Source: a virus
Virus record (IMG/VR): IMGVR_UViG_3300023240_000010
Length of the DNA: 64,000 nucleotides
Direction: 5' to 3' (one strand)
The position numbers and the translations under genes are program-made. The notes beneath the pieces are model-generated. The model was not told where the DNA came from. It searched no databases and worked only from the letters and a program-made list of their open reading frames with translations. Shown one piece after another: positions 3,848-43,520 of this stretch (position 1 is its first letter; every line of letters begins with the position of its first letter).

Positions 3848-3857
3848 CAAAAGTCAA
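3829..3857 (-). promoter_or_regulatory. Sigma70-type promoter for gp44
   Basis: TTGACT-17 nt-TATAAT. Confidence 0.75.
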
Positions 3858-27300: not shown

Positions 27301-28194
27301 GTTTATTAATCGAGGACCAGCACTATCACCAAACAATGGTATTTTACTGGTGATTGCGGGCAAATTAGAATATGCAGGTGTTATGAATGCATTGAGTGGA
27401 AAGTCTGAGTCAGTAGTTGAACCATGCTCGACATACGCATACACAGCGTCAATGCCTTCGGGTATATTATTACCAGTCAGTGTGAATGTTGTTGTTTCGC
27501 CTTCGTTAGTAGGACCGTCATTGGCGAGTGAGTATGAGATAGAGGTTCTTGCTACTGCACTATCACTGGGTAAATTCATGATACTAAGATCATTAGTGGC
27601 AAGTAGAACTTCGCTGCCGAGATACATTCCTGCAGGATGCACAAACTTCTTAAATACTTCTGACCATTGTGAGATAGGAATACCTACACGAATAAGCAGA
27701 GCATATGTCTGATACAGTTTATCGTCGGTTAAGAAGTTTAGATAGTCCGGACCAATTCGCGATTTTGTGTCAGATACATTAAAGATGTCTTCTTTAGGAT
27801 AAAGAACTTCAGCGTCCAAACCATAGAACGATCTGAAGAACCATTCAATAGCAAACTTAGATCCTTTAGCACGAAACAATGTACTAGAGAAGTTTGCGGC
27901 AGCACGTTTCTCTGCCTCTGATTGTCCAAAACCTTCGAAGTAATTCTCGCCAAGAAGTAACTCATCTTCAATAAAGGAGAGTAGAGTAACGTCTGTCTCG
28001 TTAATGTCACGAGAAGCGAATAGATGATTGAGAAGTTCTGTTGGTTTGTATGTATCTTGCCACTCATAATACTCTTCAAGAAGTTTTATGAATTTAGGAT
28101 AAGCGGAACTAAAATGCTCGGGCAAAACACTTTCAATCTGATCTTTACGCAGATTGACATGTCTTCTTCTCTTGTCGATAAAACCTTTATGCAT
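24340..28194 (-). CDS. Baseplate wedge gp7-like protein with Calx-beta/Ig-like repeats
   Basis: N-terminal VLPEHF..YPKF..LEEYY, FRAKGS..WFFRSFYG, VHPAGM; tandem ~110-aa units (EG.T.TF..G.NIP...HG.T.D.DF...E.FTV). Confidence 0.7.
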   Translation of the reverse strand: MHKGFIDKRRRHVNLRKDQIESVLPEHFSSAYPKFIKLLEEYYEWQDTYKPTELLNHLFASRDINETDVTLLSFIEDELLLGENYFEGFGQSEAEKRAAANFSSTLFRAKGSKFAIEWFFRSFYGLDAEVLYPKEDIFNVSDTKSRIGPDYLNFLTDDKLYQTYALLIRVGIPISQWSEVFKKFVHPAGMYLGSEVLLATNDLSIMNLPSDSAVARTSISYSLANDGPTNEGETTTFTLTGNNIPEGIDAVYAYVEHGSTTDSDFPLNAFITPAYSNLPAITSKIPLFGDSAGPRLINVNNSTATFTLRSWIDSDAAGSSSDNYTLKVIDRDGRNLESAIITINNSAPSYTLTPSSATPNEGDVITFTVNGSNVPYDGSTELYYHVVHGDTNDADFTVAPQQVADLQSALSLVTISGSTGSFSLKTVIDQASDDDEEFTVNIRDVNQTTVATTTVSVQQVASAFTVSAEDIVEGNSLVLAITVNTSETGDSLTYTITNADGRISPLTETFTVPAEGNGVFTKVIPTTVSDLYQGTVTPTVSITNNVSNATTTTTFVMTDVAPTWGMNSSPEFAVEGTTITFSVDGTNIPDPTTVWFEILHGTTVDADFTTTPPQTGSRSSTAISDPGDTVFQITVASDSEVEDESFTARLYDAQTGGNLLASLSYVIQGTNTSYALSPSTSSANEGSQVTFTFTTNQPDGTYYWWIPTGSSIQAADFSSAIGSNTNRSSLVVTGGTGTIAVALLNDALTEGTESFSVLVSDSNNSSVPPVVSSGTVTVTDTSVTNYSVTSNSPVEGSTLNIVISATNQTSPNSETLYIEVTGSAVIGRIPTQQLASSSSSATRNIFLSTTSSTTYQGTSVGGITVSRGGYASASGTVIASTTFNLVDQAPAMTVTPNATTGQEGSTIIYTIGGSNIPPGTYYWHDPAIIKTLDCPNGRSAGTSQIDHQGPSNSGLDLQVGMSTDDAALPGTITSIINTSGTAGYVTMSEPTTRATVTGEHIKFAFPADWGDATELYGTVAVSSNAGTFNLATLVNSDHFDDVWNIRVFNNEFSYNEYLGANLGLATAATVTIADTTPVTVNLEYNTNDVLEASFFNLNGNPQTTTLMTEYNHTGQGIVWKNFQPHYASGGTIYEDFGDPEYDDNWILPIAARSDYIGSNYQMNVRFYNDSQRTIPTVPNQQTGGSSGYSYVYGQRYVNGVEVAAWDNTSTQWWVVGTSTQSGVHYYRHIAQTTPSGGQDALVVNSRWVTVTIKEYNGTLGTGTTVLTYNYRSSVSAYTSTFNGI

Positions 28195-28856
28195 TATGCA
28201 CCATTTCCACTATTCAGCGTTTTCACTGCTAGTGCTAGTCTATCTATTGCGTCTTTAACATTTGTTGGTGCTGGACTAGTCCATAGTCCTGCACTATCTG
28301 TAGTGTAACCAAGTAAGTTACCTAAACCAGAGTAAGAACCCGCAGTTAAAATATTAGTTTGTGGATTGTAGGATAGTTGAGTATCAGTTCTTGCACTATC
28401 GTCGCCCGCAACAACACTTGTCATTACTGGATATAATGCAGTGATTGTTGAACCAGAAGAATCAACTTTAATCAATTCTGATGTGTGAGATGCTACATAA
28501 GCAACAATCGCTCCTGATGTCGCCAAAGCACTGTCCGTAAGAGATAATCCACCGGCAGAGTCAACTATTGAAGTTGCATATGTGCTATTAACATAATCGC
28601 GCAGAATGCCAAATTTGACTGTACCAGAAGTGGAGATATCACCACCAGCGATAAGTTCGTTAGCGATAGTAAGATCGCCTAATGGAATAACAATACCGCC
28701 ATCAGCAGAATCCCGAATGTTCTTTGCCAGATGTGAAAGCAAGAGTCCTCGGGTAATCTTCTTTGTCGTTCCAGTACTTACATCATTAATAACAATAACA
28801 TCCGAATCGACTGATACTGTTAATACTGGTAGTGCCGATATCTTAATATCTGCCAT
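28194..28856 (-). CDS. Short fibre-like virion protein
   Basis: MADIKISAL..DVSTGTTKKIT N-terminus; C-terminus paralogous to the neighbouring gene. Confidence 0.7.
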   Translation of the reverse strand: MADIKISALPVLTVSVDSDVIVINDVSTGTTKKITRGLLLSHLAKNIRDSADGGIVIPLGDLTIANELIAGGDISTSGTVKFGILRDYVNSTYATSIVDSAGGLSLTDSALATSGAIVAYVASHTSELIKVDSSGSTITALYPVMTSVVAGDDSARTDTQLSYNPQTNILTAGSYSGLGNLLGYTTDSAGLWTSPAPTNVKDAIDRLALAVKTLNSGNGA

Positions 28857-28898
28857 TTCTATTCTTCCTCAAATACTTTCTGTTATTTAGACTTAGTG

Positions 28899-30491
28899 TT
28901 AAGCGCCTACTTGACCGTTTAATGTTTTAAGTAATATCGCAAATCGATTGACTGCTGAGTCAAGAGTTGTGGGTGCCGCACCATTCCATAATCCTGCGCT
29001 ATCTGTAGTATACGCGATACCGGTATTCAATAGATTCTGCAAAGGATTGTATGTTAGATTGAGATCCACGTTAGTGTTATCATTACCAGATGCTGCCGAC
29101 CCAAGATGCACATAGTATGTTGCGCTATCATTGATCGTACTAACTGCTACGTTGGCAGCGTTAGTAGCAGAGAGTGCCGCTACATCTGTTATGTTCGAAC
29201 CATTACCAGCAAGATTTGTAGCAGTTAGTGTATTAGTTGCGGCATCAAATACAATACCACCATCTGTTGACACACTGTCAGAACCCGTCTGAGATGCTTT
29301 CAACATTATATACTGAGTGCCAGTAGTAGGATTAAAGTTAGAGTTAATCTTTGTTGCAGGCACTTCTGTGAGTAGTTTACCTTCACCAGAGAAAGCGCCA
29401 GCAGTTAATAAGTTGCTGAATGGATTGTATAGTATACCCGCATCTGTGTTTACACTATCTACACCAGTCGCACTCTGAACGAATAGAATGGAGTGTGAAG
29501 CATCAACAACAGACGGAAGTACATTCAATGCATTAGCAATACTACCACCACCAGGAATGGGTAAGTTAGTAAGTAAAGAACCATCACCCGCAAATGCAGT
29601 AGAAGACAATCTACCATTCGATGCGTTATATGTTAATGCGGCATTAGCGGCAAGAGTTGCTTGTAATCCAGTCTGAGCAGTACCCATGAAAGGATATAAA
29701 GTTGTCTGGGAGGCGGCAGTAGTAGTAACAATAGTGTCAGCATATTGTGCCTGAACTGCATTACTTGCGTTTGTAGCACTGTCAGCAGCAAGAGCGAATG
29801 TAGCAAGAGCAGAAGTCAAAGAGGACGTGGCGACGGTCGCACTATCTGCATTAACTGCACGAGTTGCAAGTAGAGCGAATAAAGCACTTGCTGCCGTTGT
29901 AGCACTGTCAGCATATAGAGCATGAGTCGCTTCGGTAGCAAAGTTTGCACTATCAGCATTTGTCGCACTATCAGCAAGAACACCTGTCAACAGCGAACCG
30001 TCACCAGCAAAGAAAGGAGAAGTTAATACACCTGTATTTGGGTTAGATGTTAAGTTACTCTGAGTATGTACGCTGTCTAGTCCAGTCGCACTGTTGCGAA
30101 TCATTAGAAAATATGGATTAGCATCTGTGCCTGCATCAACAGCATTAACAACCTGATCGTTAGTAGGCAAGTTCGTTAGTGCAGAACCATCACCTTCGAA
30201 TGATAGTGCTTTAAGATTTCCTGTCGAGGCATCATAAGTAAGAGAACCACTCGATCGAACTGAATCATATGAATCATCAGGACCATTACCGAAGAACACT
30301 TTCGTCTCAGTAGAACTTACATCGTTAGTAACCAATACAGTGTTTGATTGGTTAGCAGTTTGTCCGAGGAGTAAGTCACTCGCTTTGATCTGCTTAGTAA
30401 GGTTAGTACTAACATCCACTATGATTAGAACGTCATCGTTCGCCGGTGCTCCGACTGCCGAGTCTAAATCTGTTATCTTTACGCCTGCCAT
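28899..30491 (-). CDS. Fibre-like virion protein with LTYNP...FxGDGSxLT repeats
   Basis: Repeated LTYxxxxxxLxxxxFxGDGSxLT units; ADSATxA repeats. Confidence 0.75.
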   Translation of the reverse strand: MAGVKITDLDSAVGAPANDDVLIIVDVSTNLTKQIKASDLLLGQTANQSNTVLVTNDVSSTETKVFFGNGPDDSYDSVRSSGSLTYDASTGNLKALSFEGDGSALTNLPTNDQVVNAVDAGTDANPYFLMIRNSATGLDSVHTQSNLTSNPNTGVLTSPFFAGDGSLLTGVLADSATNADSANFATEATHALYADSATTAASALFALLATRAVNADSATVATSSLTSALATFALAADSATNASNAVQAQYADTIVTTTAASQTTLYPFMGTAQTGLQATLAANAALTYNASNGRLSSTAFAGDGSLLTNLPIPGGGSIANALNVLPSVVDASHSILFVQSATGVDSVNTDAGILYNPFSNLLTAGAFSGEGKLLTEVPATKINSNFNPTTGTQYIMLKASQTGSDSVSTDGGIVFDAATNTLTATNLAGNGSNITDVAALSATNAANVAVSTINDSATYYVHLGSAASGNDNTNVDLNLTYNPLQNLLNTGIAYTTDSAGLWNGAAPTTLDSAVNRFAILLKTLNGQVGA

Positions 30492-30522
30492 TGTTATTCC
30501 TCAGAATATGTTTCTATAATTC

Positions 30523-30530
30523 TATTTATA
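30523..30530 (-). promoter_or_regulatory. T4 late promoter
   Basis: TATAAATA. Confidence 0.8.
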
Positions 30531-30535
30531 GTGTT

Positions 30536-31825
30536 TTACGTCACAGTTATTGTAACTGTTGCAGTTTCTGTCTGTCCCGTATTGGGTGTTACTCTGTATG
30601 TAAATATATCAACTCCTGCAAAACCACTAGTAGGAGTATAACGAATTATTCCGTTCGCTGAATCTGTTATCAATACTGTACCATTAACTGGTGCTCCACC
30701 TGCAGGTATTGTGTATACAATAGAACTAGATTCGAACGTATCGTTAGCACCCGCATCAATGTCAATATACAATGCATCACCAGTGTTAATTGATGCAGTG
30801 ACATTAATAGCATCATCAACAGCATTAGTTACTGAAACGCTGATAGTTTGATCGAACTTTGTTCCGTCTGCCATATTCACAGAAAGTACGAATGAGTCAG
30901 AACCCGAGAAGTCTGGATTAGGAGTATATGTCCAATTACCAGTGGCGTTGTTTGCACCTGTTCGTGTTGTAATAGATGTGCCGAGACTTGCAGTTGCAGT
31001 ACCGTTTGTCGGAGCAGTGCCTATAGTAAATGTGTTGACTTTGCTTTGAGCATTAGTAATCTTAAATGCTGTTAGTATGTTGCCGCCATCTTCATTCAAT
31101 AGTGTGCCGCTTGTGCCTGTTACGACATTGCCTACTACGGATGTAGTGAACAAGTCATTTCCATCTAAGTCTTTGACACCAATATCAGCACTTGTTATAA
31201 TAGCACCTGTTGCCGCAACACCCTTATACAAACTAATCTTCATTTCGAAATCAAGTGTATATATGATTGAACGTCTGTTCTCTATCTGACCTTCATAATC
31301 GTCAGAGAATGTTATACCCTGTAATGTTATGGGGGTGTCTTCCTTGACATCGTACTCCGATAAAGGTTTTACTGTTACAGTATACTGTGGTGTGAAATAA
31401 GGTAGAATCTGTTCGATAATTTGTAATACATCATCCTGACTTTTACCATACACGTTCAACTGAAAGTTAACATTATATGGAACAGGTGTGTATAGTTGTG
31501 TTGCTGAACCAGTATAAGTTGTTGGCGCTTTAACACAGTTGTTCATCTTAGGTAATTGTCTTACTGGATCATAGTTCATTGCTACGATTTCGAATGACAT
31601 TCTTGGTAGTTTTAATGCAATCTGTCTTTCGTTTACCTCACCGTTAAGCATGTTGTCCATGCGTGTGAGAAAGTCGCGCTTAGGTGCATATGATAATGGA
31701 ACTTTTACTTGACTAATAACTTCGCCTGCGCTATTCTTACGTATGACATTTATGTTATTAAACAATGAACCAAATACGGCAACTGCTTTTCTAATTCTTT
31801 GATGATAGAAATGTGAACCTAACAT
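30536..31825 (-). CDS. gp15: Tail sheath terminator gp15 with two C-terminal Ig-like (Big_9/cadherin-like) domains
   Basis: FGSLFNNI, KVPLSYAP, LPRMSFE, QIIEQILPYF; C-terminal YTPNPDFSGSDSF and YTPTSGFAGVDIFTY. Confidence 0.92.
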   Translation of the reverse strand: MLGSHFYHQRIRKAVAVFGSLFNNINVIRKNSAGEVISQVKVPLSYAPKRDFLTRMDNMLNGEVNERQIALKLPRMSFEIVAMNYDPVRQLPKMNNCVKAPTTYTGSATQLYTPVPYNVNFQLNVYGKSQDDVLQIIEQILPYFTPQYTVTVKPLSEYDVKEDTPITLQGITFSDDYEGQIENRRSIIYTLDFEMKISLYKGVAATGAIITSADIGVKDLDGNDLFTTSVVGNVVTGTSGTLLNEDGGNILTAFKITNAQSKVNTFTIGTAPTNGTATASLGTSITTRTGANNATGNWTYTPNPDFSGSDSFVLSVNMADGTKFDQTISVSVTNAVDDAINVTASINTGDALYIDIDAGANDTFESSSIVYTIPAGGAPVNGTVLITDSANGIIRYTPTSGFAGVDIFTYRVTPNTGQTETATVTITVT

Positions 31826-32727
31826 TATACTGGATCTCCGAATGGATTAGACTCAGAGAAGTCAATGAAGTCTGTCGCAACAGTATCAAAGATTGCATTC
31901 TGATTGCCAATTTCTAAGTTCTCGCCTGCAACTGAAGTTGGTGTTTCACTAATTGCAGAAGTCTGTCCTACTACAGGTAACGATGCTGCCCAACTATGAT
32001 AGAGTCCATCAGAAGCACCACCATGTGCGACATACACTTTATATGTTCCTGGAACAGATGCATCAATGTTAGCAATCTCTCCTTTCATAGTGAAAGTTGC
32101 ATTGACCTGTGATATCTCTTCGCCAATTTCAAACTTAGTGCCTATTGTAGTAAATGTAGTCTCGTCAAATATCAGAGTTGACGTATAAGCATGTACAGTT
32201 TCAATAGCATCGATCTCTTCAACGCCGGTATCAAAGTCTTCATCATTGTATTCAAACAATTCACATCGCATACGGAACACAGGAAGATTCTTTAACTGGT
32301 AGAATGGTGTCTCATCTTCTACTTTCTGAATCTCAAATATTGAGTTAGACAATGTTAAAACAATTAGATCGCCTTCTCTTGGGCGATAGAAAGGTTCTTC
32401 TAATGTATTCTCGATAGAAGCAACAGTATTCAACCATCGACGCCTTGCCATAATGAATGTGGCAGCATCTCGAATCTCTACACCAAACTTAGCGAACAAG
32501 TCACCTTCGCCATCAAATCCTTCAACGCCTTCGATGTACATTTCTATACGATAAGCATTGTCAAATCGTGAGGTGCTATCGTCACCAAAGATAGTATCTC
32601 TGTTGACTAGTTCACGCGGGACATAGTAAACGTCCTGACCATACATCTTCAAAGACTCAATAATGATATCTTCATAGAGAGTCTGTTCAGACTTTCTGCC
32701 TTGTGAGAAGTAAAGATTAGTTGCCAT
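31825..32727 (-). CDS. gp14: Neck protein gp14
   Basis: ESLKMYGQDVYYVPR, FAKFGVEIRD, RPREGDLI, DFSESNPFG. Confidence 0.95.
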   Translation of the reverse strand: MATNLYFSQGRKSEQTLYEDIIIESLKMYGQDVYYVPRELVNRDTIFGDDSTSRFDNAYRIEMYIEGVEGFDGEGDLFAKFGVEIRDAATFIMARRRWLNTVASIENTLEEPFYRPREGDLIVLTLSNSIFEIQKVEDETPFYQLKNLPVFRMRCELFEYNDEDFDTGVEEIDAIETVHAYTSTLIFDETTFTTIGTKFEIGEEISQVNATFTMKGEIANIDASVPGTYKVYVAHGGASDGLYHSWAASLPVVGQTSAISETPTSVAGENLEIGNQNAIFDTVATDFIDFSESNPFGDPV

Positions 32728-32728
32728 G

Positions 32729-33484
32729 TTATCCTATCAGAAAGTCAACTGGGAGTTCTTGTTCGAGACGTAGTTTCTCTTCAAGTTTCTCGATTTCAGC
32801 AGTCGCGTCTTCGTACAATTGACGACCACTAATAGTAACACCACCCGGCAATTGCATTCCTTCAAACTTGGACATGTTCACGCCCCATTGCTGTTTGATT
32901 AACTGCGTGGTATAATCTTTCATGAACATATCATTCCATATGCTCAAGTGTACTTCTGGATCAATAATCTGATATACTTCAGCAATAACAAAATCACCTG
33001 CTTTAATATCACCGTCAGCAAGATCACCATCGATGTATAGACGTTGCTGTCTACGCGAGTGGCGCACTTGTGGCATGCCGTTCAGTTGTTGATCGATCAT
33101 ACTCAGATATTGTTCCATCTGATATATGTATGATAGATCGCCCGCAAAACTATAGAAGTCTGCCATGTTATTTAAAAACATCTGATACTTTAGATCAAAC
33201 ATATTGCTGCCTGAACCAAACGACGAGTTCAGAGGAAACAATCTCTTCACCCACTGTACACTTGCGCTTAAAGGAATGTATCCATTAGTTACGTCTGTCG
33301 CAGTTATTTCATGCTTGATATAAGTTCTGAGAGTAGCATCGCTATGAAACTCTTGGTATTTCTGAAGAGCGTCATCGACCTTATCTTCAACTTGATCTAT
33401 ATCAACATTGATTTCTATTACAGGTTCACCCAATCTACGTAGGGCGAAGTCGATTAAATCTTGTCTTGAATCTGGCGATGCCAT
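32729..33484 (-). CDS. gp13: Neck protein gp13
   Basis: LRRLGEPVIEINV, KQQWGVNMSKFEGMQLPGG. Confidence 0.95.
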   Translation of the reverse strand: MASPDSRQDLIDFALRRLGEPVIEINVDIDQVEDKVDDALQKYQEFHSDATLRTYIKHEITATDVTNGYIPLSASVQWVKRLFPLNSSFGSGSNMFDLKYQMFLNNMADFYSFAGDLSYIYQMEQYLSMIDQQLNGMPQVRHSRRQQRLYIDGDLADGDIKAGDFVIAEVYQIIDPEVHLSIWNDMFMKDYTTQLIKQQWGVNMSKFEGMQLPGGVTISGRQLYEDATAEIEKLEEKLRLEQELPVDFLIG

Positions 33485-33511
33485 TTGTTACTCCAAAGTT
33501 TATCTGTTTAT

Positions 33512-34756
33512 TTATGCGCCCCAGATGGTAGCACCTGCAGAGTCATAAATTACTAACTGTCTTGCTGATCCATCAAAATAACGACTCGCTTCGAGATCAC
33601 CCTCTACCGTTACGCCTGCGAATGTGACACTATCTGTACTAGTAGAACCTCGACTGGTCACAGACTGTAGTGTGTCTTGCTCTGAATCAAGATATGCAAG
33701 ATCGCCTAATACACGGTATGATATAGAATCTTGAGAAGATAATACAAGTACATTATCAGTCTCTTGATCCAGATCGATTTGTGTTAAAGATAGATTGCCT
33801 AGAGTAAGTCTATTACTAGAGGCGTTATATGATAATGCACTATCAACCTTTGCACTATCTCCGCCATTTAGTACACTAACAAATGTTGGATAGAATGTTC
33901 TGTCTTCGTCTGTTGATGTAACTTGTGTTAAGTTGACAGTACCGTCAAGAATATCAGTTGATATAGTTCGTCTAACAATTCTATTTGTTGTTGGTTCTAA
34001 GAATAGACCGAATGTAGCGGTAACGGATGCATCTGTGTTGTTAATTACAACATCATTGTCGAAGGTTGCTGAATCAAATAGTGATGGTCCAACTACTGCA
34101 ATGCCCGCTTCAAATTTAGTTAGTCTGTTAAAGTTCCAGGAGTTATCTGTCGATGCGTATGTGATACCAGCATTTGATCCAGCAACAGTGATACCCGCGC
34201 CTTCTGCTTCGGCATTGTTTGTTGCGCCTCGAGCAATGACAATATTCTTATCATCGATTTCTAATGTTGCGGTGTTCAGAATTGTTTGTGTACCATTAAC
34301 AGTAAGATTACCATTAATTACTACACTGTCAGCATATAGTCCACCGTAGAAGTACGAGTAGACTTGTGTGCTGTCGCCTCGTGCGGTTACAGTTGCTAGG
34401 GTCTCGTTTGCTGTGTCAGCAAATGCACCTGCACCAATCTTACGAACAACAACACTATCAGTCTGACCATCAAAAGGATTATTCTTTACGAATAGAGCGT
34501 AGAAATCACTTGTATCACCCGAATCTAATGATGTGAAGTTAAGTGCATTTAGTGTAAGTGAAGATATATCACCCCAAGAACGAATACCACTAGCGGTAGA
34601 CGTAAGTACTTGACCGTCAGTTGTCGGATTACCAGGACTAGGTTCTACCTGATCAAGAGTAATATACTCATATCTGCCTGAATCAAGATCTCCTACTGGT
34701 CTGGTTGATACACCACCAGAAAGCGAAGTACTCGAAACGCTTATTGTACTAACCAT
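33512..34756 (-). CDS. Fibre-like virion structural protein
   Basis: GNLTVNGTQT...DKNIVIA..A..A.GAGITV fibre module; TL..VT.RG repeats. Confidence 0.7.
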   Translation of the reverse strand: MVSTISVSSTSLSGGVSTRPVGDLDSGRYEYITLDQVEPSPGNPTTDGQVLTSTASGIRSWGDISSLTLNALNFTSLDSGDTSDFYALFVKNNPFDGQTDSVVVRKIGAGAFADTANETLATVTARGDSTQVYSYFYGGLYADSVVINGNLTVNGTQTILNTATLEIDDKNIVIARGATNNAEAEGAGITVAGSNAGITYASTDNSWNFNRLTKFEAGIAVVGPSLFDSATFDNDVVINNTDASVTATFGLFLEPTTNRIVRRTISTDILDGTVNLTQVTSTDEDRTFYPTFVSVLNGGDSAKVDSALSYNASSNRLTLGNLSLTQIDLDQETDNVLVLSSQDSISYRVLGDLAYLDSEQDTLQSVTSRGSTSTDSVTFAGVTVEGDLEASRYFDGSARQLVIYDSAGATIWGA

Positions 34757-35120
34757 TTAATGATTCCAGATAACTTAGAGTTAATTGCAATTTGCCAGCA
34801 CCCGTTGCATTAGTTGAACATCGGATAACACCGTTTTCTTCAATAATCAATTTGCCTGTGATAAGACTTACCGCATCACGCGCCTGCACTCGATAACCTT
34901 TAATCAAGTGAACTGCTGGTGCTGCCAAAGACAGCGCGGATCTCATAGAAATCTCATAGACACCAGTACCAGCGGAGTCGATATTCGCTACCTGCGCCAT
35001 CAACACAATCGCAGTGATTCCGTTGGGCGAAGTATAGACTACATCGCTATCGCCAGTAAACGTATCCTTACCTGCAACAGTAATAGAGGTTGACTTAAAC
35101 GTATTGAGTGGAGTTGCCAT
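34749..35120 (-). CDS. Small virion structural protein
   Basis: VYTSP...IVLMAQVAN...GKLIIE...LSYLE pattern; overlaps the next gene. Confidence 0.65.
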   Translation of the reverse strand: MATPLNTFKSTSITVAGKDTFTGDSDVVYTSPNGITAIVLMAQVANIDSAGTGVYEISMRSALSLAAPAVHLIKGYRVQARDAVSLITGKLIIEENGVIRCSTNATGAGKLQLTLSYLESLNG

Positions 35121-35126
35121 TTTTCT

Positions 35127-38100
35127 TTAACCTTCTAGTGCTAGAATATATGGAGTTAGAATAGCGTATAGAGATCGTTCAAACGTCTCACCTACAATTC
35201 TACCTTCCTGTCTTTTGATTGTCAATTGAGAACCAATTCTAAAGTCGCCTAACTGATCCGTCGATGTAAATACTACTAAACCTTCGTTTGTTGCTGAGTC
35301 ATATACTACTTCTCTTTCTGGTCTTGGTATACCACCATTCTGAGGAATAGCAGTAAACGTGTTAGTTCCAGATCCAACATATTCAAAGGTGTGAGAAGAT
35401 GATGTAATAACAGATCGCTGTCTGAAAGTCATCTGCTGATTCGCTTTCTTGTTACTATTCAGTCCAGGTTCGAATGCAATGTCGTACATACCGCCACCGA
35501 CTGAATCAACACCCAACACTGTGTAGAAATATTCTTCACTGTCAAACTTCATTGCATCACCGTAGTTAGGCAACTTAGTTTGTCCTACAGTTCCGAAGTA
35601 ATCAGCACTATCTCTATTTATCACTCCTGAAATACGAATGGTGTCATCATACAGAAGTTTTGCTGAATCAAGATTGCCGTCATATAGTACTTGAGAACTA
35701 CCACGAGCAATCAGTCCGTAATCACCAAACGAAGAGTTACTGTTCGTAATAGAACATTGTCCACCAGTTTCAGCAAGAATAGAAGTCTGAGTTGAGATTG
35801 TAAAGATTGATACTAACTGTGCGTAACCACGATTCAACAAGTAAGTACCAATACCAGCGGCATTGTACTGAGTGAATGCGTCTGATACCATCGACTTCAA
35901 TCCAGAACATTTAGATCCGTCAATCTTCATACCGATACCATCGTTGGTAATAGATGTACAGTTCTGAACATATGGTGATTGAACGATGAATGGTCCAGCG
36001 CCAGCACTTTCTACTTTAGGATCATATGCTACACAGGCAGCGAAGTTCTGATGATCTCGGAAAGTAATATCTTTGATGAAACAACCGTTGTCCATATAGA
36101 ACATATCAGAGTCAACACTCTTAGGTCGCACAGTTGTTGTTCTCAAGTTATCACCAACGATTGCTGTCTTAGGCGGTAACTTGATAGGATTGTTTATTGT
36201 ATAATCACCAGACTTCAAGAAGATTGTAGTGTCACCAGTATTCTTAGCAGACTTTACGGACTGAAGAACAATGAAGTCCTGATCTTTCTTGACTGCGGCA
36301 ATCGCGTTTCGTAACTCTACACTTACACCACGACTTGATAGAATAGGATCAACTTCAGTCGGCAGACTGTCAGTATTACCAGCAACTAAAGTGGCAACTA
36401 AGAGGTCGTCAATCAGCGTAGCAATAATGGTTGATTCTGTTGAAGTTGCATACTGACCGGAGTTACCAGTCTCGTTAGGACCATATGCTGAAGTAGTAGT
36501 AACATTACTTGTAAGATTATTGGTGAGAAGTTGTCCAATAATGTCTCTCATATGCTCGTATGTTGCAATTGTTGCCGCAACTTCACCAGGGTTTAATTGA
36601 CTGGCAGCACCAACAAAGTATGCACGAGAGTTTATAACCATGGCGTGTGAACCGCCATATAATATATCGAAGGTTAGACCGTCAACAATAAACCCTATGT
36701 CTCTGCGACATCTAGTTCTATCGTAAGATGAAGGACCGTACAGATTAGCATACTGTATTGCTTGTGTTTGAATCGTGCTTTTCTGTGCTAGAATAGTAGA
36801 GTAGTTTGCCGCTGTTGTAGCATTAACACCAGTAAAGTTTGGTAGAATAGTAGCATCAAGATTGTCTAAACTTTCATCATTAATAACTTCAGTAATGATG
36901 TCCATGAGAACACCCAACTGAGTTGCTTGAGTAGATGTGGCAGTTCCTGCGCTAGTATCTTGACTTGCATAGTTTTCAATAACAACCAGACCTAATGAAG
37001 TCTTCAGATATGCATATGCACCCAGTGTTGCAACCTTCTCACTGGCGCCTAATTGACTTGCAGCACCAACAAAGTATGCTCTTGCACAAGTAACAGCACC
37101 AACATTTCCTTCGTAGACTATATCGTGAGTAAGACCGTCAAGAATATAACCAATATCTCTTTTACGCTTAACTCGATCATAAGTTGTTGGACCATACGAA
37201 TCAGCATACTCTATAACATCTGCTTGCAGGGAGGTGAGCGCACCATTGATGGTGTTGTAGTCTGTAGACACTATACCAGTAAAGTCTGGCAGTACACGAG
37301 TTGCGATCGAATCAAGATTTTCTGCTACAAGAACGTCAATAATAATATCAAGTAACGTGCCCGTTGTGGTTGCTTCTGTAGCAGTTGCAGTTCCGCCTGT
37401 TGTATTCTGACCAGTATATGTTTCTTGAACTATTGATGATAGAATAGTTTTAAGATTATTAAAAGAATCCTGCCGAGCGGCGACTTCTGCGCCACTGACA
37501 ATCACTGTTACTCCATCAACAAAGTATGACCTCGCAACATTGAATGAAGCGAAGTTGCCTGCATAAAGAAGATCGTGAATTATACTTTCAAGAATATAGA
37601 GAACTTCTGTTTGATATTTGCCACGATCATATATAGCAGGACCATACAAGTCAGCAAAGGCAAGTGAGTCTGATTGAATAGTTGTCTTTGCTGCCACAAC
37701 AGTAACAAAGTCAAGAATTATCGGTTCAGCAATAGCAGTCGTATCAGGATTAACTAGTGCAGGAACACCATCAAAGTTACCAGCAGTTAATGCGTCAATA
37801 GTTATCTGAAGAAGACCCTGAAGTCTTGTAGTCTGTAGTAATTGTCCAGACTGAATTTCGCCTGTTACGTCCTGTCCAGTCAAAGTTTCACTGAGCAATG
37901 TACCAAGTTGAGTTTTAAGATTAGTGTATGCCGCAATTGAGGCAGTAACTTCTGCCGCTCCACCTAACTGAGAAACACCATCCTTGAAGTAAGAGAATGC
38001 TAAAATACGTGAAGCGAAGTTGCCATCATACAGAATATCATAAGATAGTCCGTCAAGAATGTAACCTACGTCACGTTCGCATTTTTCAACATTGTAACTT

Positions 38101-40070
38101 AATGAAGGATAGTTTGTAGTGAGATAAGCAATCGTATTGTCAATAAGTAACTGACGGTTATTTCTAATCTGCTCGTGTGCCCAATATTCATTATTCAGAC
38201 TATTAAGAGGAGTAGGATATACAATCACCGGTGCTGGAATCTTTCCTTCAAGAATGTCAAGAATAATTTCAAGATTCTTTAACAATGAAATTTTAGACGA
38301 TTCGTTGATATCCAATGCACTAAGAAGAACACCGATGTTTCTGATAGTCAGTACAGTGCCTTCGACTTGTTCCTCAGGAATAGCACCTGCGCGAGTATAT
38401 GCAAGACCCGCTGTCACTGTATTATAGTTAGTACCAAACAACAAATCGTTGGTCAGTGCTTCGATAATGTAACCCACATCTCGCGAACATTTAGTTCTAG
38501 GATATGTTAATGAGACATGATTCACTGAAACATATGTGGTGCTGGCATCGATGATTAATTGTAAATTATTTAAAATCTGATCTGCGGCATTACGTCTGTT
38601 AGCAGTAGTATTAACAGAGTCTGGATACGCAATAGGAATCGGTTGAAAAGGAGGCACACCCGACATGATAGCGGTCAACTGAACAAACGATGCGTTAATG
38701 TGGGACTTACTTGCCGCACTAATACTTAGAGCATTTATTCCAACTCTTAATACTTCCCAGGCAGCAATTGTAAATGCTAACTGATTTCCTGGCAATGCAT
38801 TGGCACGTCGATACGCAAGACCTGCTGTAATAACATTATAGTCTGTTCCTAACATTAAATCAATAGTTAATGCATCGACAATGTGACCAACGTCTCGTTC
38901 ACACTTAGTTTGGTCGTAATCCTGAACGTCATAGTTGTCCGAGATATACTGAATAGTGTTGTTGATTAATAGGGTTTTGTTATTCTGTATCTGATTGCCA
39001 GCATCTGCCTCTGCTGTTATGGTAGCAGGTGCGGCAGGGAATATAATCGTTGCGGCAGCAGATTCGCCATTGACGATTATGTCAGTGATTTCTTTAACGC
39101 ATGAGGTGATTAAAACTTTCGAAGCGTCAGCAATACTTAGCGATAACATTTGATCACGAACAAAGACAATCACCGCAATTGTGGACGCTACTTGTGCTGT
39201 AGGCAATGCATTTGCTCGTTGATAAGCAATACCTGCGGTCACACAATTATAGTTCGAACCAGTCATTAAGTCTGTGATAACAGCATCAATGATGAAACCC
39301 GTATCACGTAGACATTTAGTTTCGTCGTATGTTAATGTAGGATAGTTTTTAGCAATGAATGTTATAAGTTCATCTTTCAACCATTCACGGTTGTTCTGAA
39401 GAATAATGGCAGCATCATCAGCATCAGCAGTAGGTAATACAGCAGGAGCAGGAAAGACTAGATCGTCGTGTGCTTGTTCTGTGCTTTGCTTACCATTTGT
39501 AAGAATATCTATCACTTCTGACCAGTGAGCATTGTTTCTATATAACGCTCCTGTTACACCAGTGCTTGCCTTTACTAGAGGAATAGAACCAACAGCACCA
39601 CGTGCTTGGTTAAATGCTACAACAGTTGGTTGCAATTGTCCTGTAGTAACTTTATTTGATCCTGCTCTTTGATAAGCATGACCAGATGTTACTGCATTAT
39701 AGTTTGTTCCGAAAGCAATGTCAAGGTAAAGTCCGTCAAGAATATAATTTAAGTCACGAGTACACTTAACTTCATCGAATGCGAATGAACCTAGTGCGGT
39801 AACGGTAGAAACAGCAGAGTCGAGAGTCTTAAAAGAGTCTCCTAGAGAAGTACCAGTATTGCCAAACTTTCCAGATTTAGAAACGTAGTAAACATTCTCT
39901 ACAGCATCTTCGCCTACTTGAATTATATCGACCACACCAAATCTATCACGCTTGAGGTACATTTTACCTTCATGCGTGTTGATCGCTATCTCGCCGAGCG
40001 ATATGTCTGTGTTGCCGGGCGCTTGACCCGGGACATTACTTCGGCGACTTAGTAACTTAGTGCTTGACAT
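35127..40070 (-). CDS. Large virion structural protein: beta-helix domain interrupted by 8 helical KCxRDxGY repeats
   Basis: GEIAINTHEGK N-terminus; YYVSKSG...FKTLDSA and TIFLKSGDY...IVGDNLR halves; QSPYVQNCT. Confidence 0.8.
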   Translation of the reverse strand: MSSTKLLSRRSNVPGQAPGNTDISLGEIAINTHEGKMYLKRDRFGVVDIIQVGEDAVENVYYVSKSGKFGNTGTSLGDSFKTLDSAVSTVTALGSFAFDEVKCTRDLNYILDGLYLDIAFGTNYNAVTSGHAYQRAGSNKVTTGQLQPTVVAFNQARGAVGSIPLVKASTGVTGALYRNNAHWSEVIDILTNGKQSTEQAHDDLVFPAPAVLPTADADDAAIILQNNREWLKDELITFIAKNYPTLTYDETKCLRDTGFIIDAVITDLMTGSNYNCVTAGIAYQRANALPTAQVASTIAVIVFVRDQMLSLSIADASKVLITSCVKEITDIIVNGESAAATIIFPAAPATITAEADAGNQIQNNKTLLINNTIQYISDNYDVQDYDQTKCERDVGHIVDALTIDLMLGTDYNVITAGLAYRRANALPGNQLAFTIAAWEVLRVGINALSISAASKSHINASFVQLTAIMSGVPPFQPIPIAYPDSVNTTANRRNAADQILNNLQLIIDASTTYVSVNHVSLTYPRTKCSRDVGYIIEALTNDLLFGTNYNTVTAGLAYTRAGAIPEEQVEGTVLTIRNIGVLLSALDINESSKISLLKNLEIILDILEGKIPAPVIVYPTPLNSLNNEYWAHEQIRNNRQLLIDNTIAYLTTNYPSLSYNVEKCERDVGYILDGLSYDILYDGNFASRILAFSYFKDGVSQLGGAAEVTASIAAYTNLKTQLGTLLSETLTGQDVTGEIQSGQLLQTTRLQGLLQITIDALTAGNFDGVPALVNPDTTAIAEPIILDFVTVVAAKTTIQSDSLAFADLYGPAIYDRGKYQTEVLYILESIIHDLLYAGNFASFNVARSYFVDGVTVIVSGAEVAARQDSFNNLKTILSSIVQETYTGQNTTGGTATATEATTTGTLLDIIIDVLVAENLDSIATRVLPDFTGIVSTDYNTINGALTSLQADVIEYADSYGPTTYDRVKRKRDIGYILDGLTHDIVYEGNVGAVTCARAYFVGAASQLGASEKVATLGAYAYLKTSLGLVVIENYASQDTSAGTATSTQATQLGVLMDIITEVINDESLDNLDATILPNFTGVNATTAANYSTILAQKSTIQTQAIQYANLYGPSSYDRTRCRRDIGFIVDGLTFDILYGGSHAMVINSRAYFVGAASQLNPGEVAATIATYEHMRDIIGQLLTNNLTSNVTTTSAYGPNETGNSGQYATSTESTIIATLIDDLLVATLVAGNTDSLPTEVDPILSSRGVSVELRNAIAAVKKDQDFIVLQSVKSAKNTGDTTIFLKSGDYTINNPIKLPPKTAIVGDNLRTTTVRPKSVDSDMFYMDNGCFIKDITFRDHQNFAACVAYDPKVESAGAGPFIVQSPYVQNCTSITNDGIGMKIDGSKCSGLKSMVSDAFTQYNAAGIGTYLLNRGYAQLVSIFTISTQTSILAETGGQCSITNSNSSFGDYGLIARGSSQVLYDGNLDSAKLLYDDTIRISGVINRDSADYFGTVGQTKLPNYGDAMKFDSEEYFYTVLGVDSVGGGMYDIAFEPGLNSNKKANQQMTFRQRSVITSSSHTFEYVGSGTNTFTAIPQNGGIPRPEREVVYDSATNEGLVVFTSTDQLGDFRIGSQLTIKRQEGRIVGETFERSLYAILTPYILALEG

Positions 40071-40123
40071 CGATATTCATTCCTGTTATAATGCTCTTAG
40101 TGTTTCTATTTAGTGTCTTTGAA

Positions 40124-41209
40124 TTACGCTGGATATAGAGGATCAGTACTATAGTATCCTCCATCAAGTACATTCACACTGACCGCACCATTTACAACTG
40201 TAAATTGTTTAGCAGTTCGTGTTGAATCTCCTGCACCAGCATCAAACGATGCAACACCCAATACTGCCGAATCTGTTGTAATAGCACTTACTGTTAAAAT
40301 ATTTGCACTATCACTGTATAATAAAGTTATCGCATTACCTGGTGTCAGTAATCGATTAACACTACTGTCAATATATTGTTCAATTTGTACACTATCAACG
40401 TAGAACTGTCCATTAGAATTAAGAAAGGTTCTACCGTTTACTTCTAAATCACCCTGGACTACTGTTGAATCTAATGTAATATCTAGTACGAATGTGGTAT
40501 CACCCTGTACTATTAGATTACCTTTAATAATAACATCAGAATCAAAAGACGCTTGATTTCTTACACTTAATGGTCCAATCGATGCTGAATCGAGAGTTGT
40601 TATTCCTGTTGCAGTAAGATTGATTGCTGTTAATGCATCAACAAGTAAAGAATCTATTCTACCGTTCGAGTCAACAATCAAAGCACTATTAGGTACATTA
40701 ACTCCTGCTTGATGATTGAGAAGATTTGTAAAGTAAGAACCACCAATAACTTCAAGTGACTCTGCTCTTACTGTAGCATCTGGATATGTCGAGTCTGACC
40801 CAACACCGATGTATAATCTCTTTCCGCCATTACCAAATCCATCTGTAGCAGAATCAACTAACCATGAGTACGCCATCTCACCAGAGCGAAGATAAGGTGG
40901 TTCTCCACTCGTTCCGCTTCGACGAGTTAGTATGAGACCGTGTGCAGAATCAGAAGGATATAATTTACCATCTATAATCTGATTATTGTTTAGTAGTTTA
41001 CTTGCTGTCCATTTATCTGTGGCAGCATTGTAGATAAACAGATCACCGTCAATTGCTCCTGTAGTATCAACACCCGCAATGTTATCAATGACAACACCTG
41101 CGGCAGCGGCAGCAACTACACTAGTAATAGGTATGCCGACAACAACACGTTTTACTTTCGTGATATTGCCGACTACTACTTTATATGTCTGATCTATTGG
41201 TGCTGGCAT
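40124..41209 (-). CDS. Fibre-like virion structural protein
   Basis: GDLFIYNA..KW, RRSGT..P..L.SGEMAYS, IGGSYFT modules. Confidence 0.7.
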   Translation of the reverse strand: MPAPIDQTYKVVVGNITKVKRVVVGIPITSVVAAAAAGVVIDNIAGVDTTGAIDGDLFIYNAATDKWTASKLLNNNQIIDGKLYPSDSAHGLILTRRSGTSGEPPYLRSGEMAYSWLVDSATDGFGNGGKRLYIGVGSDSTYPDATVRAESLEVIGGSYFTNLLNHQAGVNVPNSALIVDSNGRIDSLLVDALTAINLTATGITTLDSASIGPLSVRNQASFDSDVIIKGNLIVQGDTTFVLDITLDSTVVQGDLEVNGRTFLNSNGQFYVDSVQIEQYIDSSVNRLLTPGNAITLLYSDSANILTVSAITTDSAVLGVASFDAGAGDSTRTAKQFTVVNGAVSVNVLDGGYYSTDPLYPA

Positions 41210-41218
41210 GATAAACCT

Positions 41219-41578
41219 TTATGTTGTTACTGAAGGGGTAATAGTGATAAGTCCTTCCATCACCCGTTCGACGATAGTGTTATTTGTGTCACTATCAATA
41301 TGGGATATCTCAACGTCATAAACGTAACGCTTTTTAGGATTAAGTGCGGCAGTGACAGCATTAGTTAAAGAAAGATTTACTATCCCCGCTGTTGCTGGAT
41401 TAGCAATCAACGAAAGAAATGTAATCTTATCTGAATCTTTGGCATCATAATGAGTGCTAAGTTTAGCAGAAACACTATGTCCTGTCATGTCTTTTATTGA
41501 GTTATCGACATTAACCAGATGCAATTCGACAGAGACATCTGTGCCTTGATTAATTTCTAATACTTCGTAGTGTGCCAT
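41219..41578 (-). CDS. Small virion protein (BppU-like fold possible)
   Basis: INQGTD, GIVNLSLT..VT, RYVYDVEI, RVMEG.ITITPSVT. Confidence 0.65.
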   Translation of the reverse strand: MAHYEVLEINQGTDVSVELHLVNVDNSIKDMTGHSVSAKLSTHYDAKDSDKITFLSLIANPATAGIVNLSLTNAVTAALNPKKRYVYDVEISHIDSDTNNTIVERVMEGLITITPSVTT

Positions 41579-42307: not shown

Positions 42308-43063
42308 TTAAAAATCCAGTTGCTTTGCTCCAGAAGAAGAATAGTGTCTCAATACGACAGGATCCTTGTTATGCTCATATTTATATTTGGAATAAAAGTT
42401 CCACCGAGCATCGTCTTCTAGTATACCAACTTTCAAATCTTTGTACTTGGGTTCTTTGTTAACTAACCACCACAATGAGAATTGATCCCATCTCTTCAGA
42501 GTAGCAGGATAATTTTCTAAGTCTTCTGTTCCATCTGCTTTCATTGGCCACCACGTTCTGCCATATTGTGCGACAGTTAGATCGTACCAGTCTTGCATGA
42601 ATTCACGAACTAAAGGTTTGCGCATATCATATAGACAAACACCACCACATAATTCGAATCCTGCTTTAGTGCCGTCAGGTTTTCTTGCACCTTCGAAGAA
42701 CACTTCAGCATAGCAGTAATGTCTATCAGCAGGTAAACCAGTAAACATCAAATCATGTCCATCTAGTTTATCAAAGATGGTTGCAATATCTTCGTGTTCA
42801 CATTCTATATCAGCATCGACATAAAATGTAATATCATATGGAGACTTTGCCATACCAATCAGTTTTGCTCTAGCATGGTTATCACAGAATATAACATTGT
42901 CTGCAATTCTTTCTTGTCCGTCAAGAAATCTTTCTTCTACTACAAATGTAATCTGTGCTTCGGGATAATAATCTTTAATCGACTCCATCAAGTTAATGGC
43001 AGAAACATAAAAGAACTTCTTTCGTGATGCTACAATAACATAACCTTTAGTCGGTTCGCTCAT
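42308..43063 (-). CDS. Putative GT-A glycosyltransferase
   Basis: GYVIVAS, AKL...SPYD.TFYVDAD (DxD), GGVCLY, WDQFSL, RWN, LRH; start placed at MSEP. Confidence 0.75.
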   Translation of the reverse strand: MSEPTKGYVIVASRKKFFYVSAINLMESIKDYYPEAQITFVVEERFLDGQERIADNVIFCDNHARAKLIGMAKSPYDITFYVDADIECEHEDIATIFDKLDGHDLMFTGLPADRHYCYAEVFFEGARKPDGTKAGFELCGGVCLYDMRKPLVREFMQDWYDLTVAQYGRTWWPMKADGTEDLENYPATLKRWDQFSLWWLVNKEPKYKDLKVGILEDDARWNFYSKYKYEHNKDPVVLRHYSSSGAKQLDF

Positions 43064-43520
43064 CTTCATCTGCCTTTTTAAAATAACCAAGTTCGGTGCC
43101 AATAACCAATGCTGCCAAGGCATTCATTTCAATAACATTCTTTGCTCTACGTAGTCTGGAACGCAACTCACGATTTGTTGAGTTCTTAATCGTATCTATT
43201 TCGAATGCTTGTAGTTTGGCATTAAAGAGTTGTTCAAGTTCATGAGATTTTTTACGCTGTTCGTGAATAGCACGTTTCTCGCGATCCTCTTTCTCTTTCT
43301 TATCTTTGCGCTCTTGAGTATTAGCGTCGATCTTATCCATACCCCATTGTGCAATAACTGCTTTGAACTGATCACACTCTCTACCGTCAGGTAAAATCTT
43401 ACGTAGTTCAAGAACATCTTTCTTTCTACCGCCTGATGGAATAGGACTTAGACGAATACATTTAAGTATCGTCTTTTCTTCATTTTCCCAATATCCATTA
43501 TCTAAAAATTCCACTGTCAT
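43047..43520 (-). CDS. Hypothetical protein, possible fibre-assembly chaperone
   Basis: NGYWENEEKTILKC resembles Tfa-type N-termini; helical C-terminus; coupled (TAATG) to the giant gene. Confidence 0.55.
   Translation of the reverse strand: MTVEFLDNGYWENEEKTILKCIRLSPIPSGGRKKDVLELRKILPDGRECDQFKAVIAQWGMDKIDANTQERKDKKEKEDREKRAIHEQRKKSHELEQLFNAKLQAFEIDTIKNSTNRELRSRLRRAKNVIEMNALAALVIGTELGYFKKADEDERTD

What the first reader, a model, noticed from the sequence alone, without database searches (positions are those of the whole stretch)
28194..41578. Strong D-S-(A/V/T) motif enrichment in fibre proteins: candidate glycosylation sequon
Seen (approximate hand counts of the DS dipeptide): ~14 in the 530-aa protein (9 DSA, 4 DSV; reverse SD only ~2), ~7 in 220 aa, ~12 in 414 aa and ~13 in 361 aa. 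By comparison gp18, gp20 and gp23 have ~2-3 each, although gp46 has ~8. The motif recurs in non-homologous contexts. Established: D-(S/T)-(A/I/L/V/M/T) is the O-glycosylation sequon in Bacteroidetes, where it is used in the periplasm. Inference: the promoters and SD sites argue against a Bacteroidetes host, so this may be a tag for a phage-encoded cytoplasmic modifier. It could alternatively be a structural turn or Ca-binding motif.
Basis: partly seen in the sequence, partly recalled or inferred. Interest (0 to 1): 0.7.

Follow-up and report, generated by a model that had tools for sequence, protein, structure and literature searches.

The report
Asp-Ser motif in phage fibres
Four tail- and neck-fibre proteins of an uncultured marine T4-like phage carry three to four times more Asp-Ser-(Ala/Val) motifs than chance gives; the excess is real and specific to this phage clade, but it looks more like a structural capping or turn signal of modular fibres than a proven sugar-attachment site.

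Summary
DS occurs 7, 14, 12 and 13 times in the 220-, 530-, 414- and 361-aa proteins: 46 against 13.2 expected (pooled p 1.6e-12). DS is the top dipeptide in each protein. Serine codons are mixed (AGY and TCN), so selection acts on the protein, not the DNA.

The excess is confined to fibre genes. It is absent from T4 fibres and from the cultured relatives Mosig, Melnitz and C48C1. It is strongest in one uncultured marine clade, where one relative has 116 DS in 2,855 aa.

Only about a third of the sites lie in recognisable repeats. Sites are strongly conserved. DT is depleted. The context is hydrophobic-D-S-Ala-x-hydrophobic, or DSAG.

A periplasmic Bacteroidota-type route does not fit: the proteins have no export signal, half the genes have SD-like sites, and related fibre modules occur in phages of cyanobacteria and proteobacteria.

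Phage glycosyltransferases do exist. One GT-A enzyme lies 1.1 kb upstream of the 361-aa gene, and relatives carry 1-5 GT25 genes. But these are equally present in DS-poor relatives.

Most likely reading: a structural cap/turn motif (0.55). A modification sequon remains open (0.25). Earlier notes of this scan on the same genome flagged the same motif.

The parts
28194..28856 (-). 220-aa fibre protein, short paralogue of the 530-aa protein (shared N-terminal adaptor and C-terminal YTTDSAGLW...KTLN end); 7 DS against 2.2 expected
28899..30491 (-). 530-aa fibre protein just downstream of gp15; 14 DS against 3.8 expected. Contains four ~55-60-aa beta repeats (TGxDSVxTD..YNP..GDGSxLT, sub-threshold PF06598) and an Ala-triplet segment
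29742..29975 (-). Ala-triplet segment of the 530-aa protein (residues 173-250). 24 of 26 triplets start with Ala, and ADS triplets recur at 21-residue spacing
   Evidence: AF2 gives a low-confidence helix; weak PDB hit 7o92, E 0.16
33512..34756 (-). 414-aa fibre protein at the wac/gp12 position, upstream of gp13; 12 DS against 4.4 expected. 7 of the 12 sites are at least 95% conserved down to about 36% identity
40124..41209 (-). 361-aa fibre protein with a widespread fibre N-terminal-type domain (residues 92-210); 13 DS against 2.8 expected. Several sites are GT, ET, DD, DG or TT in distant homologues
35127..40070 (-). 1647-aa virion protein, marginal excess only (14 against 8.2, p 0.03), with a DS cluster in the last ~180 residues
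42308..43063 (-). Context: 251-aa GT-A-fold glycosyltransferase-like protein with an invariant DxD (Y81-I-D83-A-D85). It is a candidate cytoplasmic modifier but is also conserved in DS-poor relatives
30536..33484 (-). Landmarks: gp15 (with Ig-like C-terminal domains), gp14 and gp13 neck genes lying between the DS-rich genes. None is DS-enriched

Best explanation
DS(A/V) is a structural punctuation mark of the modular, presumably trimeric, fibre proteins of this phage clade. The Asp (with the small Ser after it) would cap the start of short helices, as h-D-S-A-x-h, where a hydrophobic residue before and four residues after form a staple. It would also form tight turns (Y-D-S-A-G) and the loop-to-strand entries of the beta repeats (TGxDSVxTD). 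The excess then has two sources. First, every copy of several repeat modules carries one conserved DS, and these modules expand in relatives (~49-aa and 9-aa units). Second, at many single sites an ancestral D-x has settled on D-S. What is shown: the enrichment, its restriction to fibres, its site conservation and its sequence context. What is inferred: the capping or turn role.
For: Sites are far more conserved than their surroundings. D405/S406 of the 530-aa family is kept in 54 of 57 homologues. 7 of 12 sites of the 414-aa family are at least 95% DS down to about 36% identity. At 42% overall identity, 53% of DS sites are shared against 18% expected for a dipeptide. Context: position -1 is bulky hydrophobic in 48-72% of sites (background 30%), +2 is Ala in 50-66%, +4 is hydrophobic in 46-62%, and +7/+8 are hydrophobic in the 2855-aa relative. 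DSAG sits in two C-terminal motifs..IYDSAGxxxWGA and YTTDSAGLW. In the weak AF2 model, DS sits directly before strands 347-356 and 408-416 and at the starts of helices 176, 218 and 510. Substitutions at DS sites keep the Asp and swap Ser for small residues (DA, DG, DN, DD), hardly ever for Thr. DT is depleted throughout: 157 against 313 expected in the 530-aa family. D/N/T/S N-caps at every alpha/beta transition are an established feature of trimeric phage fibres and adhesins (PMC4786415). No DS-clade-specific modifying enzyme was found.
Against: One dipeptide serves in very different contexts: Ala-triplet coil, beta repeat, turn and 29 singleton sites. That is unusual for a purely structural signal. 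Position N3 shows no E/Q/D, so it is not a classical capping box. Homologous modules in other phages do without DS: distant homologues show 1.0-1.3x, and T4, Mosig, Melnitz and C48C1 fibres show none. No reliable 3-D model was obtained: the monomer AF2 model has pLDDT 54.8. The lineage is rich in glycosyltransferases.
Confidence: 0.55

Rival explanations
1. DS(A/V/T) is an acceptor sequon. A phage-encoded cytoplasmic enzyme (the GT-A transferase at 42308-43063, one of the GT25 enzymes, or another modifier) decorates the serine on fibre proteins before or during assembly. This would coat the fibres with glycan.
For: The motif is enriched across at least three unrelated fibre families and 29 singleton contexts. 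It was gained at sites that are GT, ET, DD, DG or TT in distant homologues. 80% of sites have A/I/L/V/M/T at +2. The excess is limited to exposed fibre proteins. A confident GT-A model (pLDDT 95; LgtC/glycogenin E 2e-8; invariant DxD) lies in the fibre gene block. Relatives have 1-5 GT25 genes each. An FkbM methyltransferase and a cytidylyltransferase-like gene lie in the window. PF06598 repeats were named from the chlorovirus fibre glycoprotein Vp260 (PMC9617893).
Against: The GT-A gene and the GT25 genes are just as present in DS-poor relatives. A contrast of two DS-rich against two DS-poor genomes gave no recognisable modifier. Thr is avoided. Sites are fixed in position rather than turning over. 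The giant fibre that shares the enzyme-gene neighbourhood is not DS-enriched. No modification has been observed.
Confidence: 0.25
2. The excess is mostly a by-product of ancestry. Fibre genes of this clade exchange and amplify short modules that happen to contain DS, and the dipeptide itself has no special role.
For: Module expansion is evident: the 414-aa homologues range from 393 to 1134 aa, with DS counts scaling from 21 to 54. Examples are a ~49-aa repeat in L024 and a 9-aa spacing in the 2855-aa protein of G003. The 220- and 530-aa proteins are paralogues.
Against: After collapsing repeat clusters the excess persists (33 against 13.2, p 3e-6). DS sites are about three times better conserved than a random dipeptide. 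Unrelated families show the same bias.
Confidence: 0.1
3. Asp and Ser side chains from the three chains form cation-binding (Ca2+/Mg2+) or hydrogen-bond ladders along the fibre axis, stabilising the fibres in sea water.
For: ADS triplets recur at exactly 21-residue spacing in the Ala-triplet segment. The phage is marine: homologues come from Tara and other marine assemblies.
Against: No known Ca-binding consensus is present. In homologues the spacing varies (15-24 residues). Many sites lie in loops or turns rather than on an axis. This is untested.
Confidence: 0.06
4. The motif is the Bacteroidota general O-glycosylation sequon, used by the host machinery on phage proteins.
For: The tripeptide fits D-(S/T)-(A/I/L/V/M/T) in 37 of 46 sites (motif from PMC8550257).
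Against: That system acts on inner-membrane, periplasmic and lipoprotein substrates (PMC8729774). The four proteins have no conserved signal peptide; the hydrophobic stretch of the 361-aa protein is not conserved in homologues. 25 of 49 genes have an SD-like site against a 9% background. Homologous fibre modules occur in phages of Prochlorococcus, Synechococcus, Pelagibacter, Methylophilales, Limnohabitans and Roseobacter, and none in a Bacteroidota phage. DT is depleted.
Confidence: 0.03

Closest known systems
N-capping residues of beta-layers and helix starts in trimeric phage fibres and trimeric autotransporter adhesins (Hartmann et al. 2016, PMC4786415)
   Same: A short polar residue (D, N, T or S) recurs at every helix start or alpha/beta transition of repetitive trimeric fibres. 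A hydrophobic residue precedes it. Nonad-like 9-residue spacing is seen in a relative.
   Different: The published consensus is [aliphatic]-A-T-K-[polar]-[DE], not h-D-S-A. No acidic or Gln residue sits at the partner position. No structure is available here.
Bacteroidota general O-glycosylation sequon D-(S/T)-(A/I/L/V/M/T) (PMC8550257, PMC8729774)
   Same: The tripeptide pattern is the same in 80% of sites.
   Different: The known system is periplasmic and acts on exported proteins. Here the proteins are cytoplasmic virion proteins without signal peptides, Thr is avoided, and the host is probably not Bacteroidota.
Pfam PF06598, Chlorovirus glycoprotein repeat (Vp260 = PBCV-1 fibre protein P22, PMC9617893)
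   Same: The GDGSxLTNV part of the ~55-60-aa beta repeat matches this family. Most homologues of the 530-aa protein carry it. Both are virus fibre proteins.
   Different: The window protein scores 22.3 bits, below the 27-bit cut-off. The DS lies about 22 residues upstream of the matched segment. Chlorovirus glycans known so far are N-linked.
Cytoplasmic glycosylation of repetitive adhesins (autotransporter heptosyltransferases TibC/AAH; serine-rich-repeat adhesins) - from my own knowledge
   Same: A dedicated cytoplasmic transferase modifies a serine that recurs once per repeat of a fibrous surface protein. This is what the sequon reading would resemble.
   Different: No homologous transferase was identified here, and no modification has been shown.
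Retaining GT-A transferases LgtC / glycogenin / alpha-1,3-galactosyltransferase (for the neighbouring 251-aa enzyme)
   Same: Fold match E about 2e-8, TM 0.50-0.58; invariant DxD.
   Different: Sequence identity is 10-16%. There is no Pfam GT8 hit. The acceptor is unknown, and the gene is also present in DS-poor phages.

Membership tests
Bacteroidota general O-glycosylation targets | Tripeptide D-(S/T)-(A/I/L/V/M/T) | tested here: met
   37 of 46 DS sites have A/I/L/V/M/T next. However, D-T is depleted (7 against 13.9).
Bacteroidota general O-glycosylation targets | Substrate is exported (signal peptide, lipoprotein, or inner-membrane/periplasmic location) | tested here: not met
   The N-termini lack a conserved signal sequence. 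The hydrophobic stretch of the 361-aa protein (KD 2.3) drops to 0.4-1.5 in homologues. No dedicated signal-peptide predictor was available.
Bacteroidota general O-glycosylation targets | Host belongs to Bacteroidota | tested here: inconclusive
   SD-like sites lie upstream of 25 of 49 genes against a 9% background. The nearest cultured relatives infect SAR11 and OM43. The host itself is unknown.
Bacteroidota general O-glycosylation targets | Glycan actually attached to the Ser/Thr | not testable with these tools
   This needs mass spectrometry.
PF06598 Chlorovirus glycoprotein repeat | Score above Pfam's gathering threshold (27 bits) | tested here: inconclusive
   The window's 530-aa protein scores 22.3 bits, E 1.4e-4. 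Most homologues at 28-95% identity carry a precomputed PF06598 hit.
alpha/beta coiled coil (beta-layer) fibres | Consensus [aliphatic]-A-T-K-[polar]-[DE] with hexad or nonad spacing | tested here: not met
   The motif here is h-D-S-A-x-h. A 9-residue spacing occurs in the G003/L059 relative only. The only PDB hit is 7o92 at E 0.16.
alpha/beta coiled coil (beta-layer) fibres | Trimeric structure with three-residue beta-strands crossing the axis | not testable with these tools
   Only monomer AF2 was available, and its model was poor (pLDDT 54.8).
GT-A glycosyltransferase (neighbouring 251-aa protein) | Rossmann-like GT-A fold with a DxD metal/nucleotide-sugar motif | tested here: met
   AF2 pLDDT 95. 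Foldseek top hits are LgtC, glycogenin and alpha3GalT at E about 2e-8. D83 and D85 are invariant in 40 sequences.
GT8 family (Pfam PF01501) | Sequence match over the family cut-off | tested here: not met
   There is no PF01501 hit to this gene in G001-G004. The only weak hit is PF00535, E 0.089.

The most novel reading that the evidence does not exclude
DS(A/V) is the acceptor sequon of a phage-encoded cytoplasmic protein-glycosylation system (GT-A/GT25 enzymes) that sugar-coats the neck and tail fibres of an abundant clade of marine T4-like phages. This would be the first sequon-directed glycosylation of phage fibres, at a density of up to one site per 20-25 residues.
Probability: 0.2. Interest if true: 0.8.

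Novelty: new variant of a known kind. Interest (0 to 1): 0.45.

Why it matters
Phage fibres decide host range. A short motif that is saturated in the fibres of an abundant, uncultured marine myovirus clade has one of two meanings. It may be a new building rule for modular trimeric fibres, useful for modelling and engineering them. Or it may mark a virion-modification system in phages that carry many unexplained glycosyltransferase genes. The motif gives a precise, cheap experimental handle: DS peptides, S-to-A variants, and co-expression with the neighbouring transferase.

Tried and rejected
- **DNA-level motif:** rejected. Ten codon pairs encode DS, using both AGY and TCN serine codons.
- **General property of T4-type fibres:** rejected. 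T4 gp34-37, gp12 and wac, and the fibres of Mosig, Melnitz and C48C1, are not enriched.
- **Repeats alone:** insufficient.
- **Link between transferases and DS:** not found. The GT-A gene and GT25 genes occur in DS-rich and DS-poor genomes alike. The six ORFs shared by G002 and G003 but absent from G004 and G005 include no recognisable modifier; one has an amidase domain and is probably the gp5 analogue.
- **Cyanophage origin:** rejected. No psbA in five related records, three of them at least 89% complete.
- **Export signal in the 361-aa protein:** rejected. The hydrophobic segment is not conserved.
- **Solved structures:** PDB sequence searches with the 220-, 361-, 414- and 530-aa proteins and a DS-rich relative found nothing meaningful.
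- **Structure prediction:** monomer AF2 of the 530-aa protein was poor. The VIA search on it returned only generic helical hairpins, Z at most 5.7.
- **ESM Atlas:** no model and only unnamed viral clusters.
- **Cultured phages:** megablast and tblastn of the 530-aa gene against cultured phages gave no match.
- **Tools and caps:** No whole genome is held for the window.
Full report
**What the window is.** All genes lie on the minus strand and form a T4-like structural and replication block. Identified genes are gp5, gp25 and gp6; giant proteins of 1798 and 2814 aa; gp13, gp14 and gp15; gp16 to gp23; UvsY, UvsW, gp47, gp46, gp45, gp44, gp62, RegA and Hsp20.

- The nearest records by gp14 are Phage C48C1 (49%), cyanophages (about 43%) and Pelagibacter phage Mosig (40%).
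- Five related IMG/VR records lack psbA.
- The 414-aa protein has Tara and other marine homologues on up to 98 contigs.
- So this is an uncultured, abundant marine myovirus, and probably not a cyanophage.
- No whole genome is held for the window, and it contains no tRNA genes.

- Shuffles give p = 0.0025, <5e-5, 3.5e-4 and <5e-5.
- Pooled, 46 are observed against 13.2 expected (p 1.6e-12). DS is the top dipeptide in each of the four proteins.
- DT is depleted (7 against 13.9) and SD is not enriched.
- The next residue is Ala in 23 of 46 sites and Val in 8. A/I/L/V/M/T together make 80%, against a 47% background.
- Ten codon pairs are used, so selection acts on the protein.
- The giant virion proteins and all non-fibre proteins are not enriched. 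In four related genomes the only DS outliers are fibre genes.

**Where the motif sits.** Four recurring contexts exist.

- A ~55-60-aa beta repeat, TGxDSVxTD..YNP..GDGSxLTNV. Its distal part matches PF06598 below threshold.
- An Ala-triplet segment in which 24 of 26 triplets start with Ala and ADS recurs every 21 residues.
- DSxVxxGxLxVxG.
- A C-terminal YTTDSAGLW...KTLN end shared by the 220- and 530-aa paralogues.
- These account for only 16 of 45 scorable sites. The other 29 are singletons, and the excess survives collapsing the repeats (33 against 13.2, p 3e-6).
- The 414- and 361-aa proteins are unrelated to each other.

**Evolution of the sites.**

- Sites are strongly conserved. D405/S406 is kept in 54 of 57 homologues of the 530-aa protein.
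- 7 of 12 sites of the 414-aa family are at least 95% DS. At 42% identity, 53% of DS sites are shared against 18% expected.
- The trait belongs to a lineage. Homologues down to about 35% identity keep a 3.3-3.5x excess, while distant proteins sharing only modules show 1.0-1.3x.
- In the 361-aa family, several sites are GT, ET, DD, DG or TT in distant homologues and DS in the close lineage. So DS was gained.
- Fibres of T4, Mosig, Melnitz and C48C1 are not enriched.
- Some relatives are extreme: 51 DS in 991 aa (~49-aa repeats), and 116 DS in 2855 aa (p 6e-31), often at 9-residue spacing as h-DSA-Y/A-h-x-x-h-h.

**Testing the glycosylation reading.**

- Host route. The Bacteroidota sequon acts on inner-membrane, periplasmic and lipoprotein substrates (PMC8550257; PMC8729774).
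  - The four proteins lack a conserved export signal.
  - 25 of 49 genes have SD-like sites against a 9% background.
  - Homologous fibre modules occur in phages of cyanobacteria and proteobacteria only.
  - I reject this route.
- Phage route.
  - Its true length is 251 aa, and it has an invariant DxD in 40 homologues.
  - AF2 gives pLDDT 95.
  - The best PDB matches are LgtC, glycogenin and alpha-1,3-galactosyltransferase (E about 2e-8).
  - So a cytoplasmic GT-A transferase lies 1.1 kb upstream of the 361-aa gene.
  - Five related records also carry 1-5 GT25 genes each.
- No link to DS.
  - C48C1 has the same transferase (56% identity) but ordinary fibres.
  - Among 67 non-redundant IMG/VR loci carrying the transferase, the 35 with at least 60% identity to the window's enzyme have DS 1364 against 599 expected (2.28x). 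The 32 more distant ones have 703 against 519 (1.35x; Mann-Whitney p 2e-6).
  - The enzyme is therefore conserved across both states.
  - A gene-content contrast of two DS-rich against two DS-poor genomes gave six specific ORFs, none a recognisable modifier.

**Testing the structural reading.**

- Around DS, position -1 is bulky hydrophobic in 48-72% of sites, +2 is Ala in 50-66%, and +4 is hydrophobic in 46-62%. This is the pattern of an Asp N-cap with a hydrophobic staple.
- DSAG occurs in two C-terminal motifs.
- In the low-confidence AF2 model, DS directly precedes strands or helix starts.
- When DS is replaced, Asp is usually kept and Ser becomes A, G, N or D, rarely T.
- Recurrent D/N/T/S caps at helix starts are established for trimeric phage fibres (PMC4786415).
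- Against this reading: position N3 is not acidic, the contexts are heterogeneous, other lineages build homologous modules without DS, and no trimer model could be made.

**Verdict.**

- The best reading is a structural cap/turn motif of this clade's modular fibres (0.55).
- A sequon for a phage-encoded modifier remains a live and testable alternative (0.25). The enzymes exist, but no correlation ties them to DS.
- Pure hitch-hiking with repeats (0.10), an ion-binding ladder (0.06) and the host Bacteroidota route (0.03) are less likely.
- The same motif was noted by other first-stage notes on this same genome.

Noticed in passing
window 43520-51964 (-): The 2814-aa protein has an extreme D-Y excess (101 against 32.3, p 4e-22), with NY, YL and YI also enriched. 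It is the strongest dipeptide bias in the window and a different 'grammar' from the DS fibres. An earlier scan note describes it as a tyrosine-ladder fibre.
   Followed up: partly
window 42308-43063 (-): A 251-aa GT-A-fold transferase. The listed ORF of 271 aa starts too early. DxD is invariant, AF2 pLDDT is 95, and the top hits are LgtC and glycogenin. At least 341 homologous 90%-identity clusters exist at 52-100% identity, always next to a ~225-aa gene and a ~118-aa gene.
   Followed up: yes
window 29742-29975 (-): A 78-residue segment with Ala at every third position (24 of 26 triplets). The period of 3.0 fits neither a heptad coiled coil nor a beta strand. AF2 calls it a helix at pLDDT below 50. 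The fold is unknown.
   Followed up: partly
L024:15388-18363 and G003:C1:66129-74696 (L059:14737 onward): Homologues at the 414-aa position vary from 393 to 1134 aa through ~49-aa repeats, each with TDSVG and DSDS. Another relative has a 2855-aa fibre built of short DSAYIQAR-like units with 116 DS.
   Followed up: partly
G001-G005 (relatives; e.g. G001:C1:25749-27813, G002:C1:75480-81357): One to five GT25-family glycosyltransferase genes per genome, often clustered, in these marine T4-like phages. G005 also has two GT8 hits. The acceptors are unknown.
   Followed up: partly
window 3854-4699 (-) and 9039-9497 (-): An FkbM-type methyltransferase lies between gp44 and gp45, and a 152-aa cytidylyltransferase-like protein lies near gp47. 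They may be part of a sugar or glycerol-phosphate tailoring set.
   Followed up: no
window 30536-31825 (-): gp15 (tail sheath stabiliser) carries about 200 extra C-terminal residues with Big_9 and Cadherin_5 Ig-like domains.
   Followed up: no
window 35127-40070 (-): The 1647-aa protein shows a K-C dipeptide excess (6 against 0.4, p 7e-6).
   Followed up: no
window 24340-28194 (-): A 1284-aa protein with a baseplate-wedge-like N-terminal domain (PF23786) sits between the fibre genes and gp16, away from the other baseplate genes.
   Followed up: no
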